A DNA stretch of 61,304 bases. Source: a virus (lineage: Duplodnaviria > Heunggongvirae > Uroviricota > Caudoviricetes). The stretch lies in IMG/VR virus record IMGVR_UViG_3300015155_000017, one strand, 5' to 3'. The stretch's first letter is position 1, and every line of letters begins with the position of its first letter. Under the pieces are notes generated by a model. That model was not told where the DNA came from, did no database searches, and was given only the letters and a program-made list of their open reading frames with translations. Made by a program: the position numbers and the translations under genes. Shown here in pieces: positions 4,452-5,801 of this stretch.

Positions 4452-4632
4452 CAGGGTTTTCGTCATGGTTAGCGACTTTGCGGCGGTTTAGAAACTGACC
4501 ATTAAAGTAAATGCAAACGATGATCTGATGATGGTAGCGGCCTAAGAAGCCAGACGCCACGGGGTATGAGTCGTCCCCCGTCAAAAAATCGACCGCAGAG
4601 TGTCCCCGTCTGTGTATTAGGGAACGGGGAGG

Positions 4633-4712
4633 CACAACAGGTAAGGGCGCTGGTGTGATTAACCAGATGAACGAGAAGGGGCCATCTGTTGGTCAGCGTC
4701 CTTTCCTGTTGC
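4633..4712 (+). repeat. structured non-coding element E1 (long imperfect hairpin, ACAGGTAAGGG 5' arm)
   Basis: CAACAGGTAAGGGCG pairs with CGTCCTTTCCTGTTG across ~50 nt; shares its 5' arm with the element at 5072. Confidence 0.35.
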
Positions 4713-4916
4713 GTCTTCTTTTCAGCGTAACAGCGGTGCTTAACAGCACTTTGGGTACAGTTCCACGAATTTACGGGTATATCCCGTCATGCTGAAAGCG
4801 CTAATCACGCTGGAAGCCAGGGTTATGCATCCCCTGTTACCGAATTGCAGCCAGGGCGCGGTGCGCCGAAAAGCATACGGAGGTGGAAGCCCTCGCCGGA
4901 GACGTACCCGGCAAGT

Positions 4917-4992
4917 GATGGTGTAGCTCAGCGGTTAGAGCGGTTGACTGTTAATCAACGGATCGATGGTTCAAATCCATCCACCATCGCCA
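4917..4992 (+). tRNA. tRNA-Asn (anticodon GTT)
   Basis: Cloverleaf folded by hand: acceptor GATGGTG/CACCATC, D-arm GCTCAGCGGTTAGAGC, anticodon loop CTGTTAA, T-loop GGTTCAAATCC, encoded CCA. Confidence 0.85.
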
Positions 4993-4994
4993 AT

Positions 4995-5070
4995 GCCGGT
5001 TTAGCTCAGTTGGTAGAGCGCCTGCCTTGTAAGCAGGATGTCAGCGGTTCGAGTCCGTTAATCGGCACCA
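4995..5070 (+). tRNA. tRNA-Thr (anticodon TGT)
   Basis: Cloverleaf: acceptor GCCGGTT/AATCGGC, anticodon loop CTTGTAA, T-loop GGTTCGAGTCC, CCA end. Confidence 0.85.
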
Positions 5071-5071
5071 G

Positions 5072-5158
5072 CACAACAGGTAAGGGTATTTTGCGACGTC
5101 GGAGATCGCCGAGCTTGGCAGAGGGTTCGAATCCCTACGAAGTACCCTTACCGTTGTG
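5072..5158 (+). repeat. structured non-coding element E2 (16-bp stem enclosing a tRNA T-loop-like GGTTCGAATCC)
   Basis: CACAACAGGTAAGGGTA pairs with TACCCTTACCGTTGTG; interior has a T-arm-like segment but no D-arm, so not a canonical tRNA. Confidence 0.35.
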
Positions 5159-5299
5159 ATGAAGTGCAGCTCTTTGAAGCAACCAGAAGATAAGCATCTG
5201 GCTTCACAACATAAACCGCAGGAACGACCAATAAACGGTAGTCCGTATGGAGAACACCCCGTTGAGGAAGAGGCCTGGCCGGAACCGTAACCGGCACTA

Positions 5300-5399
5300 C
5301 AACGTTGAGAACACTGGCGTAACGGGGTCATATCCCAATCTACGAATAAATGTTGCGTTGCAGCGTGACAACCAGTGTTCTCAACATTGTGGTGAATGC
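5300..5399 (+). repeat. structured non-coding element A (18-bp stem, conserved loop GTAACGGGGTCATATCCCAATCTAC)
   Basis: CAACGTTGAGAACACTGG pairs with CCAGTGTTCTCAACATTG; loop motif repeated at 5598-5622. Confidence 0.4.
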
Positions 5400-5576
5400 A
5401 CAGGCTGATGTGCCGCAACTACAGTAGTGCGCGCTTTGCGGGGCTTGCTACAACCCTGTGTCGGAGTTCAGCACCGACCATCACAGTTTGATTCTCTGGC
5501 ATGAGCATAACGCTGAAATAAGTCCAGTCTGGTGCGGCCCGATCACCCGCCGTTAGCTCCACGAAACGGAGCACGT

Positions 5577-5660
5577 AACAGGTAAGAGCATTCTCCTGTA
5601 ACGGGTTCATATCCCAATCTACAGGTCCACCAGGAATGCTCTTTCCGTTGCGGTGAATGC
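5577..5660 (+). repeat. structured non-coding element B (second copy of the loop motif with a different stem)
   Basis: GTAACGGGTTCATATCCCAATCTAC at 5598-5622 flanked by GGTAAGAGCATTCTCC / GGAATGCTCTTTCC arms. Confidence 0.4.
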
Positions 5661-5801
5661 GGCTAAGCGCACGCGGGGAAATGGTTATATCTGTCCATTA
5701 TTTCTCCTTATTTCCCCGTCCACGGTGGATAACCAGCTAAAGAACACCGGGAAGCACCCGGCACCGCAACCTTATTTCCCAACCAGTAATGAGGTTAATA
5801 A

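What the first reader, a model, noticed from the sequence alone, without database searches (positions are those of the whole stretch)
4600..5680. Family of long-stem structured non-coding elements interleaved with the tRNA genes
The ~1.5 kb between dmt and tciA has no credible ORF but carries, besides tRNA-Asn and tRNA-Thr, at least four hairpin elements. Two (4633..4712 and 5072..5158) open with the same GCACAACAGGTAAGGG arm and close with its complement. Two others (5300..5399 and 5577..5660) share a 25-nt loop, GTAACGGG(G/T)TCATATCCCAATCTAC, enclosed by stems of different sequence that are each internally complementary. Conserved loop with covarying stem is the signature of a functional RNA. 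Element 5072..5158 also contains a tRNA T-loop-like GGTTCGAATCC but no D-arm.
Basis: seen in the sequence. Interest (0 to 1): 0.6.

Follow-up and report, generated by a model that had tools for sequence, protein, structure and literature searches.

The report
Phage P1 clamp-hairpin RNA modules
The four hairpins between the tRNA genes of this P1-like phage are real and are copies of one widespread, apparently undescribed phage RNA module, a conserved 20-base-pair "clamp" stem around a freely replaceable insert, some inserts copying arms of tRNAs; what the module does is still unknown.

Summary
Four long hairpins (4630-4716, 5072-5158, 5295-5396, 5574-5655, + strand) fold far better than shuffled controls (z -4.9 to -6.3).

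They are one family, not two pairs. A covariance model built only from unrelated viral contigs finds all four.

The family is a conserved ~20-bp clamp helix around an insert that differs completely between copies. I found 51 unrelated insert classes in 114 viral contigs. It occurs in prophages across Enterobacterales.

Compensatory changes and a 109:9 excess of G-U over A-C cells point to an RNA read from the + strand.

Inserts are enriched for tRNA T-arm copies, as in E2. The loop shared by E3 and E4 resembles the anticodon arm of initiator tRNA.

In P1 the modules lie in the leader of the C1-repressed ban operon, beside tRNAs and STnc100-like domains. The leader is partly homologous to the dicF-dicB leader of E. 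coli prophage Qin.

The GenBank ORFs plp and upl on the opposite strand look spurious.

Function is not shown. My best guess is that the hairpins are RNase III-type processing sites that cut the leader into tRNAs, small RNAs and mRNA. The inserts may act as tRNA-arm decoys. Rfam has no matching family.

The parts
4231..4260 (+). C1 operator Op72 (Oban a/b) with the Pban promoters. This is the start of the transcription unit that carries all the elements.
   Evidence: The GenBank P1 annotation, mapped from L001 1477-1522. The operator sequence ATTGCTCTAATAAATTT is readable at 4231-4247.
4305..4451 (+). dicF-like leader that ends in the only intrinsic terminator of the region (stem 4425-4444, then a T run).
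   Evidence: It is annotated 'dicF-like region' in P1. Positions 4305-4400 are about 85% identical to the sequence just upstream of dicF in prophage Qin of E. coli K-12. The terminator comes from the consensus scan.
4630..4716 (+). E1, a clamp hairpin and a diverged family member, fully paired where the others have a bulged A.
   Evidence: It folds at -41.4 kcal/mol with z -5.1. Model R1 scores it 26.3 bits (E 6e-6), but in the - orientation. The + strand is 8.5 kcal/mol more stable. It shows a C-G to U-A compensatory change in D6 and SJ46.
4917..4992 (+). tRNA-Asn (GTT).
   Evidence: ARAGORN and Rfam tRNA at 74.5 bits.
4995..5070 (+). tRNA-Thr (TGT). Its CCA end lies one base before E2.
   Evidence: ARAGORN and Rfam tRNA at 72.9 bits.
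5072..5158 (+). E2, a clamp hairpin whose insert holds a small hairpin and a tRNA T-arm copy (AGGG-TTCGAAT-CCCT, 5121-5135) next to the 3' clamp strand.
   Evidence: R1 scores it 45.5 bits, E 1.5e-12. It folds at -41.6 kcal/mol with z -5.9. The same insert class occurs in Enterobacter phage BUCT554 and in a viral contig.
5153..5302 (+). Inter-hairpin domain. It opens with GUUGUGAUGAAG and ends with the hairpin CCGG-N8-CCGG followed by CACUACAAC. A similar CCGG-N8-CCGG-CA hairpin also precedes tRNA-Asn (4897-4912).
   Evidence: Sequence and fold. Pieces of it match noncoding DNA of Sashavirus phages and Citrobacter phage phiNP, where they also flank clamp hairpins.
5295..5396 (+). E3, a clamp hairpin with four compensated stem differences from E2 and E4. 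Its insert is an initiator-tRNA-like anticodon arm (GGG-GUCAUAU-CCC, 5324-5336) plus a second hairpin.
   Evidence: R1 scores it 32.5 bits, E 4.5e-8. It folds at -46.0 kcal/mol with z -6.3.
5389..5493 (+). Multi-helix domain closed by GUGGUG with CAUCAC. It starts with GGUGAAUGC-ACAGGCUGAUGU-GC, as do the domains that follow clamp hairpins in other phages.
   Evidence: Fold. The same opening is seen in BUCT554 and RCS47. Its own folding energy is not better than shuffles (z -0.2).
5496..5573 (+). Spacer module that ends in the small hairpin GCUCC-ACGAAAC-GGAGC. In Klebsiella prophages the same module sits between a tRNA-Gly gene and a clamp hairpin. P7 and D6 carry an 87-nt tRNA-Ser-like gene at this place instead.
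   Evidence: Its fold is not better than shuffles.
5574..5655 (+). E4, a clamp hairpin. Its insert is the same anticodon-arm copy as in E3 (GGG-UUCAUAU-CCC, 5603-5615), held by a different covarying stem.
   Evidence: R1 scores it 44.7 bits, E 3e-12. It folds at -34.7 kcal/mol with z -4.9.
5649..5770 (+). STnc100-like domain closed by UGCGGUG with CACCGCA. Its first four bases are the last four bases of the E4 stem. It ends about 30 nt before the tciA start codon.
   Evidence: Rfam RF02076 scores 29.6 bits against a gathering score of 47, E 3.6e-4, covering model positions 31-147 of 206. It folds with z -2.7. A homologous domain lies between dicF and dicB in Qin at 34.4 bits.
5802..6227 (+). 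tciA (TerB domain), the first protein gene downstream of the array.
   Evidence: ORF list, Pfam TerB at E 2e-6 and the P1 annotation.

Best explanation
**What it is.** E1-E4 are four tandem copies of a mobile RNA module that is common in temperate phages of Enterobacterales. Each module is a hairpin whose lower ~20 bp, the 'clamp', is conserved in sequence: 5' CACAAC-A-GGUAAGAGCAUUG paired with CAGUGCUCUUUCC-GUUGUG 3'. The clamp usually has a bulged A and one internal mismatch. Its interior (8 to about 170 nt) is replaced wholesale from copy to copy. A multi-helix domain of the STnc100/PasD type usually follows the hairpin.

**Where it sits in P1.** The modules are transcribed rightward from the C1-repressed ban promoter. 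They share a leader of about 1.5 kb with a dicF-like terminated RNA, tRNA-Asn and tRNA-Thr, ahead of tciABC-trnI-ban.

**Proposed mechanism (inferred, not shown).** The two-turn double-stranded clamp serves as a punctuation mark in the RNA. Host RNase III, with RNase E and RNase P at neighbouring sites, would cut there. That would release the tRNAs and the STnc100-like pieces from the polycistronic leader, uncouple them from the downstream mRNA, and free the insert as a small hairpin RNA. Several inserts copy tRNA arms: a T arm in E2 and an initiator-like anticodon arm in E3 and E4. They may therefore also engage tRNA-binding factors.

**Shown here:** the structure, the family, the strand, the conservation and the genomic context.

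**Inferred:** transcription of these elements, the cleaving enzyme, and any role of the inserts.
For: **Structure.**
- z-scores are -4.9 to -6.3 on the + strand and weaker on the - strand.

**Family.**
It also hit 43 species-representative genomes, nearly all Enterobacterales.
- In 114 of those contigs an upstream partner arm completes a hairpin.
- Model R1, built from 69 such clamps with no P1 sequence, scores E2 at 45.5, E4 at 44.7, E3 at 32.5 and E1 at 26.3 bits. There are no comparable hits elsewhere in the 61-kb window.

**RNA-level selection.**
- 92% of clamp cells pair.
- 70 double-change cells are observed against 37 in shuffles, and 0 of 500 shuffles reach the observed value.
- One-sided changes are transitions that keep G-U pairs.
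- G-U cells outnumber A-C cells 109 to 9.
- The sense strand scores about 20 bits above the antisense strand in nearly all copies.

**The clamp is the constant part.**
- There are 84 distinct hairpins in 51 unrelated insert classes.
- Inserts fold no better than shuffles (median z -0.6).
- A near-empty clamp exists in D6 (L003 3798-3845).

**Context.**
- About 84% of copies are co-oriented with the flanking ORFs.
- All 31 tRNA genes found within 1.5 kb are on the same strand.
- E2 starts one base after the CCA of tRNA-Thr. In D6 and P7 a clamp hairpin starts within 2 nt of the end of a tRNA-Ser-like gene.
- No terminator lies between 4451 and ban.

**Precedent for the mechanism.**
[quoted passage not shown] This is the title of Regnier and Grunberg-Manago 1989, as cited in PMC5371410, which also lists an RNase III site between rimP and metY.
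- The P1 leader is homologous to the Qin dicF-dicB leader. [quoted passage not shown] 1990 as cited in PMC5371410 and PMC12197685.
- The lower stems are 19-22 bp. That is about the two helical turns E. coli RNase III needs (general knowledge).
Against: - No transcript or cleavage data were available for these elements.
- RNase III has little sequence specificity, so it does not explain why the clamp sequence is held nearly constant across several bacterial families.
- The conserved bulge and mismatch could equally be a protein-binding motif, or antideterminants that block cleavage.
- Qin, the one relative with documented RNase III processing, has no clamp hairpin.
- Only 16% of viral copies have a tRNA gene within 1.5 kb, so tRNA release cannot be the general role.
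- The family was collected with an exact 3'-arm pattern, and many contigs are related prophages. Conservation of that arm is therefore partly by construction, and the shuffle tests overstate independence.
- E1 matches the model better in the opposite orientation.
Confidence: 0.35

Rival explanations
1. Display scaffold for tRNA-arm decoys. On this reading the insert is the working part and the clamp only holds it out. Copies of tRNA arms, made in quantity early in lytic growth, would soak up or misdirect host factors that recognise tRNA. Candidates are tRNA-cleaving toxins or defence nucleases such as initiator-tRNA-specific VapC, modification enzymes, methionyl-tRNA synthetase, or the ribosomal P site.
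For: - T-arm-like hairpins occur in 6 of 51 insert classes, against 0.03 expected and a maximum of 1 in 500 shuffles. E2 carries one.
- The E3/E4 insert class is conserved from P1 to lambdoid prophages as stem-AC-GGG-NYCAUWN-CCC-AAYC-stem. The outer stem covaries, with G-C replaced by A-U.
- The lambdoid form GGGCTCATAACCC equals positions 29-41 of the E. coli initiator tRNA. My recalled tRNA sequence was confirmed as a four-copy tRNA-Met gene in all 5,426 E. coli genomes.
- Three G-C pairs in the anticodon stem are the initiator hallmark, and enteric VapC toxins cut that arm (general knowledge).
- Extreme insert diversity is what an arms race would produce.
Against: - Most insert classes (about 44 of 51) show no tRNA-like feature. 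Generic anticodon-arm-like hairpins are not enriched (3 observed against 1.6 expected).
- Inserts are not unusually structured.
- Near-empty clamps exist.
- The P1 copies differ from initiator tRNA at loop positions 32 and 38.
- tRNA-arm fragments could simply be debris from the tRNA genes that share these loci.
Confidence: 0.15
2. DNA-level recombination linkers. On this reading the conserved 20-bp arms matter mainly as patches of homology at module boundaries. They would let phages swap, duplicate and delete tRNA and small-RNA cassettes. The RNA hairpin would be a by-product. This can coexist with an RNA role.
For: P1-like phages differ by whole cassettes, and the junctions lie in clamp arms or shared inserts.
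- RCS47 has an extra domain-plus-hairpin, flanked by the repeat CCGTTGTGATGAA.
- P7 has that extra hairpin in place of E2.
- SJ46 carries an E3/E4 hybrid joined inside the shared 25-nt loop.
- D6 has additional copies.
- Pieces of the P1 leader match unrelated phage groups in a mosaic pattern.
- The arms are nearly identical across very different phages.
Against: - A pure DNA role does not predict the 109:9 excess of G-U over A-C cells, the transition-only one-sided changes or the compensatory pairs.
- It does not predict the consistent orientation with transcription.
- Homology patches need not be inverted repeats.
Confidence: 0.15
3. Conformational switch in the leader. The last 3-4 bases of each clamp are also the first bases of the closing helix of the following STnc100-like domain. 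GUUGUGGUG is the exact complement of the CACCACAAC that ends the domain. The two helices would therefore compete. Which one forms could control maturation of the small RNA or translation of the next gene (tciA in P1, dicB in Qin).
For: - The overlap is visible in the sequence.
- In E4 all three strands changed together: CGUAAC, GUUGCGGUG and CACCGCAAC replace CACAAC, GUUGUGGUG and CACCACAAC.
- CACCACAAC or a close variant lies about 90 nt downstream in many units.
- The domain ends about 30 nt before tciA. In Qin it runs into the dicB start.
Against: - The 9-mer complementarity test did not beat shuffled 9-mers once G-U pairs were allowed.
- E1 has no such downstream partner.
- The inter-hairpin domains are not thermodynamically distinctive (z -0.2 to -2.7).
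Confidence: 0.1
4. The region encodes the proteins Plp (5041-5418) and Upl (5419-5610) on the - strand, as in the GenBank P1 record, and the hairpins are incidental.
For: - Both ORFs are open in this window and are annotated in P1 and RCS47.
- 'upl' was reported as upregulated in a P1vir RNA-seq study (PMC8201110).
Against: - Neither has a Pfam domain.
- plp starts at TTG and runs antisense through the 3' end of tRNA-Thr.
- The N and C termini of plp change with cassette content among P1, RCS47, P7, D6 and SJ46. upl has no equivalent in D6, P7 or SJ46.
- The P7 record does not annotate them. RefSeq annotation of P1-like plasmids shows no feature under 5560-5800, the only stretch queried, in 39 of the 40 records listed.
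- The same DNA modules occur in many phages without these ORFs.
- Reads counted for 'upl' would equally come from the + strand RNA. I did not check whether that library was strand-specific.
Confidence: 0.03

Closest known systems
STnc100 / PasD prophage small RNAs (Rfam RF02076; bioRxiv 10.64898/2026.05.13.724894)
   Same: The domain that follows E4 aligns to STnc100 model positions 31-147. The first ~30 model positions correspond to the 3' strand of a clamp hairpin in a lambdoid example (L010). Both are prophage-borne and lie in leader or 'moron' regions.
   Different: The hairpin itself is not part of any Rfam model. All P1, D6, RCS47 and Qin matches fall below the gathering score (29.6-39.6 bits against 47). 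None of 15 viral contigs with clamps has an STnc100 hit at threshold. The P1 copies lack the terminator and poly-U tail that make STnc100/PasD Hfq-type small RNAs.
RNase III hairpin downstream of tRNA metY in the E. coli metY-nusA-infB operon (Regnier and Grunberg-Manago 1989, cited in PMC5371410)
   Same: A long hairpin immediately follows a tRNA inside a polycistronic transcript. Cleavage there releases the tRNA and sets the fate of the downstream mRNA.
   Different: There is no sequence similarity. Cleavage of the P1 hairpins is untested. The P1 hairpins belong to a mobile multi-copy family with replaceable interiors.
dicF-dicB leader of cryptic prophage Qin (E. coli K-12)
   Same: There is direct homology. 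P1 4305-4400 is about 85% identical to the sequence upstream of dicF. Both have a terminated small RNA, then an STnc100-like domain, then a small protein gene. DicF maturation uses RNase III and RNase E (title of Faubladier et al. 1990).
   Different: Qin has no clamp hairpin and no tRNA genes. P1 has a different terminator hairpin in place of DicF itself, with no Rfam DicF hit.
Bacterial Y RNA-like YrlA (Rfam RF02553)
   Same: A long stem formed by the two ends encloses a tRNA-like module with a canonical T arm, as in E2.
   Different: The YrlA model does not match E1-E4. Its only weak hit (24 bits against 69) spans the two real tRNAs. No Ro-binding motif is evident, and I did not look for an rsr gene.
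Stable RNAs 'species 1 and 2' in the phage T4 tRNA gene cluster (from memory; not checked here)
   Same: Long-hairpin stable RNAs of unknown function are co-transcribed and co-processed with phage tRNAs.
   Different: They come from a different phage group. No sequence relation was tested.
Transcribed inverted-repeat elements cut by RNases (Neisseria Correia elements, enterobacterial ERIC; from memory)
   Same: Inverted terminal repeats of about 20-26 nt form hairpins inside mRNAs and are RNase targets.
   Different: Those elements share their internal sequence between copies and insert at many genomic sites. Here only the arms are shared, and the setting is always a phage leader.

Membership tests
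Clamp-hairpin module (family defined here) | Significant match to covariance model R1, which was built from non-P1 sequences only | tested here: met
   E2 45.5 bits, E4 44.7 bits, E3 32.5 bits and E1 26.3 bits (E 1.5e-12 to 6e-6). The next best hit in the window is 13.9 bits. E1 scores only in the reverse orientation.
Clamp-hairpin module (family defined here) | Lower helix of about 20 bp: a 6-bp base, a bulge or mismatch at positions 7-10, then a 13-14-bp upper part | tested here: met
   Folds. E2 and E4 have the bulged A. E1 and E4 have the U-U mismatch, and E3 has a C-A mismatch.
Clamp-hairpin module (family defined here) | Followed directly by a GGUGAAU-type multi-helix domain | tested here: inconclusive
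   E3 and E4 are followed by GGTGAATGC. E2 is followed by the variant GATGAAGTGC. E1 is not. This feature was also part of the pattern used to collect the family.
STnc100 (Rfam RF02076) | Score at or above the curated gathering threshold of 47 bits over the full model, including the terminator | tested here: not met
   5649-5768 scores 29.6 bits and covers only model positions 31-147 of 206. There is no hit at all for the domains after E1, E2 and E3.
tRNA | Cloverleaf recognised by ARAGORN or the Rfam tRNA model | tested here: not met
   Only 4917-4992, 4995-5070 and 6502-6577 are called. E2 has a T arm but neither a D arm nor an anticodon arm.
YrlA / bacterial Y RNA (Rfam RF02553) | Match to the family model | tested here: not met
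   No hit on E1-E4 at E up to 10.
YrlA / bacterial Y RNA (Rfam RF02553) | Neighbouring Ro (rsr) gene | not tested
   I did not search the window for an rsr homologue.
RNase III processing site | Double-stranded stem of about two helical turns | tested here: met
   The lower stems are 19-22 bp and the model helix has 20 pairs.
RNase III processing site | Cleavage that depends on RNase III, in vivo or in vitro | not testable with these tools
   No transcript-end data for P1 were found in the held literature.
Integron attC site | Inverse core RYYYAAC and core GTTRRRY at the ends of the hairpin, with function as single-stranded DNA next to an integron integrase | tested here: not met
   GCACAAC has A at a Y position. 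GTTGTGG has T at an R position and G at the Y position (read). The G-U over A-C excess and the co-orientation with transcription point to RNA. I did not search for an integrase.
Miniature inverted-repeat transposable element | Copies share their internal sequence as well as their terminal repeats | tested here: not met
   51 unrelated insert classes among 84 distinct hairpins.
Protein-coding genes plp and upl | ORF conserved in length and ends among relatives, with recognisable protein family signal | tested here: not met
   No Pfam hit. The ORF ends vary and upl is absent in D6, P7 and SJ46. RefSeq plasmid annotation shows no feature under the queried 5560-5800 stretch in 39 of 40 listed records.

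The most novel reading that the evidence does not exclude
Temperate enterobacterial phages carry a portable RNA 'display cassette'. A constant double-stranded clamp presents a rapidly exchanged insert. A subset of inserts are deliberate copies of tRNA arms, including the initiator-tRNA anticodon arm (E3 and E4 in P1) and T arms (E2). These would act as decoys or sponges against host tRNA-targeting toxins and defence nucleases, or would capture tRNA-binding machinery, at the onset of lytic growth.
Probability: 0.12. Interest if true: 0.85.

Novelty: new variant of a known kind. Interest (0 to 1): 0.62.

Why it matters
P1 is one of the most studied phages, and P1-like plasmid prophages were found in about 10% of complete E. 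coli genomes (539 of 5,426). Yet the 1.5 kb between dmt and tciA is still annotated as two doubtful ORFs.

This work shows that the stretch is an array of structured RNA modules. The modules belong to an Enterobacterales-wide family that has no Rfam model.

- **Annotation.** It corrects the record: plp and upl are probably not genes.
- **Reach.** It links P1 to the small-RNA-rich 'moron' regions of Shiga-toxin and other lambdoid prophages.
- **A testable system.** It defines a constant clamp, a replaceable insert and tRNA-arm copies that can be tested directly.
- **If the clamps are processing sites,** they explain how phage tRNAs and small RNAs are cut out of long leaders.
- **If the inserts are decoys,** they would be a new kind of RNA-based counter-defence.

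Tried and rejected
- **Rfam at permissive E-values.** The only hits on the hairpins were microRNA precursor families (mir-142, mir-465 and others) far below threshold. These are generic long-hairpin matches, so I rejected them.
- **cmsearch with filters off.** It lost even the true hits in the window, probably because the model's size limit cannot span the long inserts. The result is uninformative, so the absence of a clamp in Qin rests on that run plus reading the sequence.
- **Targets of the P1 inserts within the window.** I found only 11-mers, which is chance level. About 33 kb of the P1 genome lies outside the window.
- **Alternative pairing of GUUGUGGUG with a downstream complement.** Once G-U pairs are allowed, this does not separate from shuffled 9-mers.
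- **Whether the inserts are themselves structured.** They are not (median z -0.6).
- **Literature.** The P1 genome paper (PMC523184) and Faubladier and Bouche 1994 (PMC205167) are not held. A search using 'tciA' returned only cancer-imaging papers. No paper holds the clamp sequence. The Storz-lab preprint and Tree et al. 2014 describe neighbouring small RNAs but not this hairpin.
- **Considered and dropped.**
  - HDV-like 'theta' ribozymes after tRNAs: no Rfam hit, and the fold is wrong.
  - HK022 put antitermination RNA: wrong context, and not testable from memory.
  - A resemblance between the E4 5' arm (CGUAACAGGUAA) and 16S rRNA 1496-1508: it does not hold for the family consensus.
  - A boxA-like GCUCUUU in the 3' arm: it is base-paired, and the resemblance was not pursued.
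Full report
**Identity of the window and setting.**
The region is 98-99.9% identical to phage P1. In the GenBank P1 record the stretch after dmt begins with the C1-controlled operator Op72 and the Pban promoters. The operator sequence is readable at 4231-4258 of the window. A 'dicF-like region' follows. It ends in the only intrinsic terminator of the area, at 4425-4451. Next come tRNA-Asn (4917-4992) and tRNA-Thr (4995-5070), then tciABC, a third tRNA and ban. 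No further terminator-like site lies between 4451 and ban. Whatever lies in between is therefore expected to be read rightward as the leader of the ban operon. That is an inference from annotation. I found no transcript data.

**The observation.**
All four hairpins exist as described.
- On the + strand they fold at -41.4, -41.6, -46.0 and -34.7 kcal/mol.
- Their z-scores are -5.1, -5.9, -6.3 and -4.9 against dinucleotide shuffles, and none of 200 shuffles did as well.
- The reverse complements fold 6.5 to 8.5 kcal/mol less well.
- The 16-nt arm shared by E1 and E2, the 25-nt segment shared by E3 and E4, and the GGTTCGAATCC in E2 are all present.

**One family, not two pairs.**
Reading the four side by side shows a common stem base:
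- E1: CACAACAGGTAAGGGC ... GTCCTTTCCTGTTGCG
- E2: CACAACAGGTAAGGGT ... TACCCTTACCGTTGTG
- E4: CGTAACAGGTAAGAGC ... GCTCTTTCCGTTGCG
- E3: TACAACGTTGAGAAC ... GTTCTCAACATTGTG

E3 differs from the others at four stem positions, and each difference is matched on the other strand.

P1 relatives add more members.
- RCS47 has a 68-nt hairpin between E2 and E3.
- P7 has that hairpin in place of E2.
- D6 and P7 have a 112-nt variant in place of E4.
- D6 has further copies, including one after the third tRNA that carries an insert of only about 8 nt.
- SJ46 has an E3/E4 hybrid.

Among E1 orthologues one pair changes from C-G to U-A and one from G-U to G-C. The U-U mismatch position stays unpaired, becoming C-A.

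**The family is very large.**
Blast of the P1 leader against phage genomes gave a mosaic. Separate 60-150-nt pieces hit noncoding stretches of lambdoid Klebsiella, Salmonella, Citrobacter and Cronobacter phages, a Uetakevirus and Sashaviruses. Reading those loci showed the same hairpin base each time: CACAACAGGTAAGAGCATTG ... CAGTGCTCTTTCCGTTGTG, usually followed by GTGAATGC.

An exact-pattern scan for TGCTCTNNNCGTTGTGGTGAAT gave:
- 43 of the one-per-species genomes, from Escherichia, Klebsiella and Citrobacter to Pantoea, Erwinia, Serratia, Rouxiella and Ewingella, plus a few odd assemblies that may be contaminated.

In 114 viral contigs an upstream partner arm completes a hairpin of 64-209 nt. 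There are 84 distinct hairpins, and their interiors fall into 51 classes with no detectable similarity to each other. P1's own interiors belong to classes found elsewhere. The E2 class, the RCS47/P7 class and the E3/E4 class all recur in viral contigs or other phages.

**Independent membership test.**
I built a covariance model (R1) from 69 distinct clamps. Each was the two arms joined by an artificial GAAA loop. None came from P1-like phages.

With default filters the model finds:
- E2 at 45.5 bits
- E4 at 44.7 bits
- E3 at 32.5 bits
- E1 at 26.3 bits

E-values run from 1.5e-12 to 6e-6 and are rough. Nothing above 14 bits appears elsewhere in the 61-kb window.

E1 is the outlier. It scores only in the reverse orientation, because both of its strands carry the extra base that is a bulge in the other copies. 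However, its G-U pairs exist only in the + strand RNA, which is 8.5 kcal/mol more stable.

In 100 viral loci the model finds second and third copies 200-300 nt apart in many contigs. Tandem arrays are therefore normal, and P1's four copies are at the high end.

**Evidence that the RNA is what is selected.**
- On the 69-clamp alignment, 92.0% of cells form standard pairs, against 87.5% in shuffles and 31-61% when partners are slid.
- 70 cells show a change on both sides, against 37.3 +/- 4.3 in shuffles. No shuffle in 500 reaches the observed value or the observed covariation score.
- The variable positions are 9-11 with 36-38, and 20 with 27.
- Seven pairs vary on one side only, always by transitions that convert a Watson-Crick pair to G-U.
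- Position 10:37 is unpaired in 37 of 69 sequences. A helix defect near the bulged A is therefore itself a conserved feature.
- Excluding the two weakest pairs, there are 109 G-U cells against 9 A-C cells. Only a sense-strand RNA, or single strand, would produce that asymmetry.
- Hairpins point the same way as the nearest long ORF upstream in 86 of 102 cases and downstream in 85 of 104.

Caveats:
- The 3' arm was fixed by the search pattern.
- Many contigs are related prophages.
- The shuffle control does not preserve relatedness.

**The interior.**
Interiors are not more structured than shuffled sequence. The median z is -0.6, and only 1 of 51 classes falls below -2. The constant, selected part is therefore the clamp. 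The D6 copy with a minimal interior says the same.

The interiors are not random either. A canonical T-arm (G-TTCRANN-C loop with at least 4 stem pairs) occurs in 6 of 51 classes, against 0.03 expected. In four of those six it lies directly against the 3' clamp strand, the position it has next to the acceptor stem in a tRNA. E2 is of this kind.

The segment shared by E3 and E4 is a conserved hairpin found from P1 to lambdoid prophages: outer stem, AC, GGG, a 7-nt loop NYCAUWN, CCC, AAYC, outer stem. The outer stem covaries, with GUG/CAC in lambdoids and GUA/UAC in P1. The further pairs differ between E3 and E4.

The commonest lambdoid form, GGGCUCAUAACCC, is identical to positions 29-41 of E. 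coli initiator tRNA. I recalled that tRNA sequence from memory and confirmed it as a 100% match to a tRNA-Met gene present four times in every E. coli genome. The P1 copies keep the three G-C pairs and UCAUA but differ at loop positions 32 and 38. Generic anticodon-arm-like hairpins are not enriched.

**Neighbours of the hairpins.**
Each clamp is followed by a multi-helix domain whose closing helix starts inside the last bases of the clamp. For example, E4 ends in GUUGCG and the next domain begins UGCGGUG.

The domain after E4 is a weak match to the prophage small RNA family STnc100: 29.6 bits against a gathering score of 47, covering model positions 31-147. Stronger but still sub-threshold matches occur in D6, RCS47 and a Salmonella phage. 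In the Salmonella phage the first 30 model positions cover the 3' part of a clamp hairpin.

None of 15 clamp-bearing viral contigs has an STnc100 hit at threshold. The clamp family is therefore not simply 'STnc100 with a 5' extension'.

STnc100 and its relative PasD are described as prophage small RNAs with terminators and Hfq-type behaviour. One copy lies 75 nt downstream of stx2 (PMC12370729; bioRxiv 10.64898/2026.05.13.724894). The region after the late promoter of lambdoid prophages is known to be rich in small RNA genes (PMC4104026). None of these papers mentions the hairpin, and the clamp sequence occurs in no held paper.

**Link to prophage Qin.**
In E. coli K-12, DicF (76.7 bits) is followed at once by an STnc100-like domain (34.4 bits) that runs into the dicB start. 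The roughly 100 nt before dicF are about 85% identical to P1 4305-4400.

The P1 leader therefore looks like a Qin-type leader into which clamp modules and tRNA genes have been inserted. The order is a terminated small RNA, then clamp-plus-domain units and tRNAs, then a final domain, then a small protein gene. Qin itself has no clamp.

**tRNA association.**
Only 18 of 114 viral loci have a tRNA gene within 1.5 kb. All 31 such genes are on the hairpin's strand, and 21 lie upstream, often 80-100 nt away.

In P1, E2 begins one base after the CCA of tRNA-Thr. In D6 and P7 a clamp begins within 2 nt of the end of a tRNA-Ser-like gene.

A CCGG-N8-CCGG-CA hairpin precedes tRNA-Asn (4897-4912). Similar CCGG-N8-CCGG-CA hairpins precede E3 and the clamps in Sasha and phiNP. 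tRNAs and clamp hairpins thus seem to occupy equivalent slots.

**The annotated ORFs.**
plp (5041-5418) and upl (5419-5610) on the - strand are open here. The case against them:
- Neither has a Pfam domain.
- plp starts at TTG and overlaps tRNA-Thr in antisense.
- The ends of plp change with cassette content among relatives, and upl has no counterpart in D6, P7 or SJ46.
- The P7 record omits both.
- RefSeq annotation of the P1-like plasmids shows no feature under the one stretch I queried (5560-5800) in 39 of the 40 records listed.

I consider them artefacts of long palindromic noncoding DNA.

**How it most likely works.**
What is established is a conserved double-stranded RNA element of about two helical turns. 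It has a defined defect, lies in phage leader transcripts, and is flanked by RNAs that must be cut out, namely tRNAs and small-RNA-like domains.

The simplest mechanism is that the clamp is a processing site for RNase III. There are two precedents:
- the RNase III/E-dependent maturation of DicF in the homologous Qin leader.

Both are known to me only through titles cited in PMC5371410 and PMC12197685.

I put this at about 0.35. The main weakness is that RNase III needs no particular sequence, yet the clamp sequence is nearly fixed across bacterial families. That points to something else as well:
- a specific binding protein;
- the competing helix with the next domain (a switch, about 0.1);
- a role of the arms as recombination linkers (about 0.15), which the cassette differences among P1, RCS47, P7, D6 and SJ46 show does happen.

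The tRNA-arm inserts suggest a further function as decoys (about 0.15 as the main role). These readings are not mutually exclusive.

**Verdict.**
It is the P1 instance of a large, apparently undescribed RNA family with a constant clamp and hypervariable, partly tRNA-mimicking interiors. Its function remains open.

Noticed in passing
window 4305-4451: The 'dicF-like region' of P1 is about 85% identical over roughly 100 nt to the sequence just upstream of dicF in E. coli K-12 prophage Qin. It then ends in a different terminator hairpin, and there is no Rfam DicF hit. From the Pban start (about 4268) this would give a terminated RNA of roughly 180 nt that might be a small RNA in its own right. 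The arrangement recalls the short terminated transcripts made from lambdoid late promoters.
   Followed up: partly
window 6578-6770; L003 (D6) 3614-3797: The noncoding stretch after the third tRNA (GGCACATGCGTCGTTAGCGG ... CACCATCCTGGCGATTCGGTGTGACAGCCGGGAAGAGTCCGGCG) is another module shared with many lambdoid and P22-like prophages. In those phages it sits directly upstream of a clamp hairpin. D6 keeps a clamp there and P1 does not. No Rfam family matches it.
   Followed up: partly
L003 (D6) 2466-2552; L004 (P7) 2396-2482: P7 and D6 carry an 87-nt tRNA-Ser(UGA)-like gene with a long extra arm where P1 has a spacer module. Rfam scores it as tRNA-Sec at 43.1 bits, just under the 47-bit threshold. 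The D6 record annotates its tRNAs on the wrong strand.
   Followed up: no
window 5041-5610, - strand: The GenBank genes plp ('putative lipoprotein') and upl lie entirely on the reverse strand of the hairpin array, and plp overlaps tRNA-Thr. They are probably annotation artefacts.
   Followed up: yes
L005 (SJ46) 2228-2303: SJ46 has a single hairpin whose 5' half is E3 and whose 3' half is E4, joined inside the shared 25-nt loop. This is a natural deletion by recombination between the two copies.
   Followed up: partly
L002 (RCS47) 2646-3473: In RCS47 the tciABC genes downstream of the last STnc100-like domain are replaced by a putative serine protease gene. The protein cargo behind the RNA array is therefore exchangeable too.
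   Followed up: no
window 4231-4258: The bipartite C1 operator of the ban operon overlaps the dmt stop codon (TAA at 4239-4241).
   Followed up: no
L133, L141, L144, L146, L162, L164 (genome-contig scan): The exact 22-nt clamp pattern also appears in assemblies labelled Vibrio tubiashii, Geobacteraceae, Acidobacteriota, Bifidobacteriaceae, Roseicyclus and Phycisphaerae. Most are metagenome bins. This could be contamination by enterobacterial prophage DNA or real spread outside Enterobacterales. I did not examine it.
   Followed up: no
L013, L017, L020, L021 (viral contigs): Several clamp-bearing prophage contigs also carry the C4 antisense RNA and isrK families known from the P1/P7 immunity region. 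This shows further sharing of RNA modules between P1-like and lambdoid/P22-like phages.
   Followed up: no
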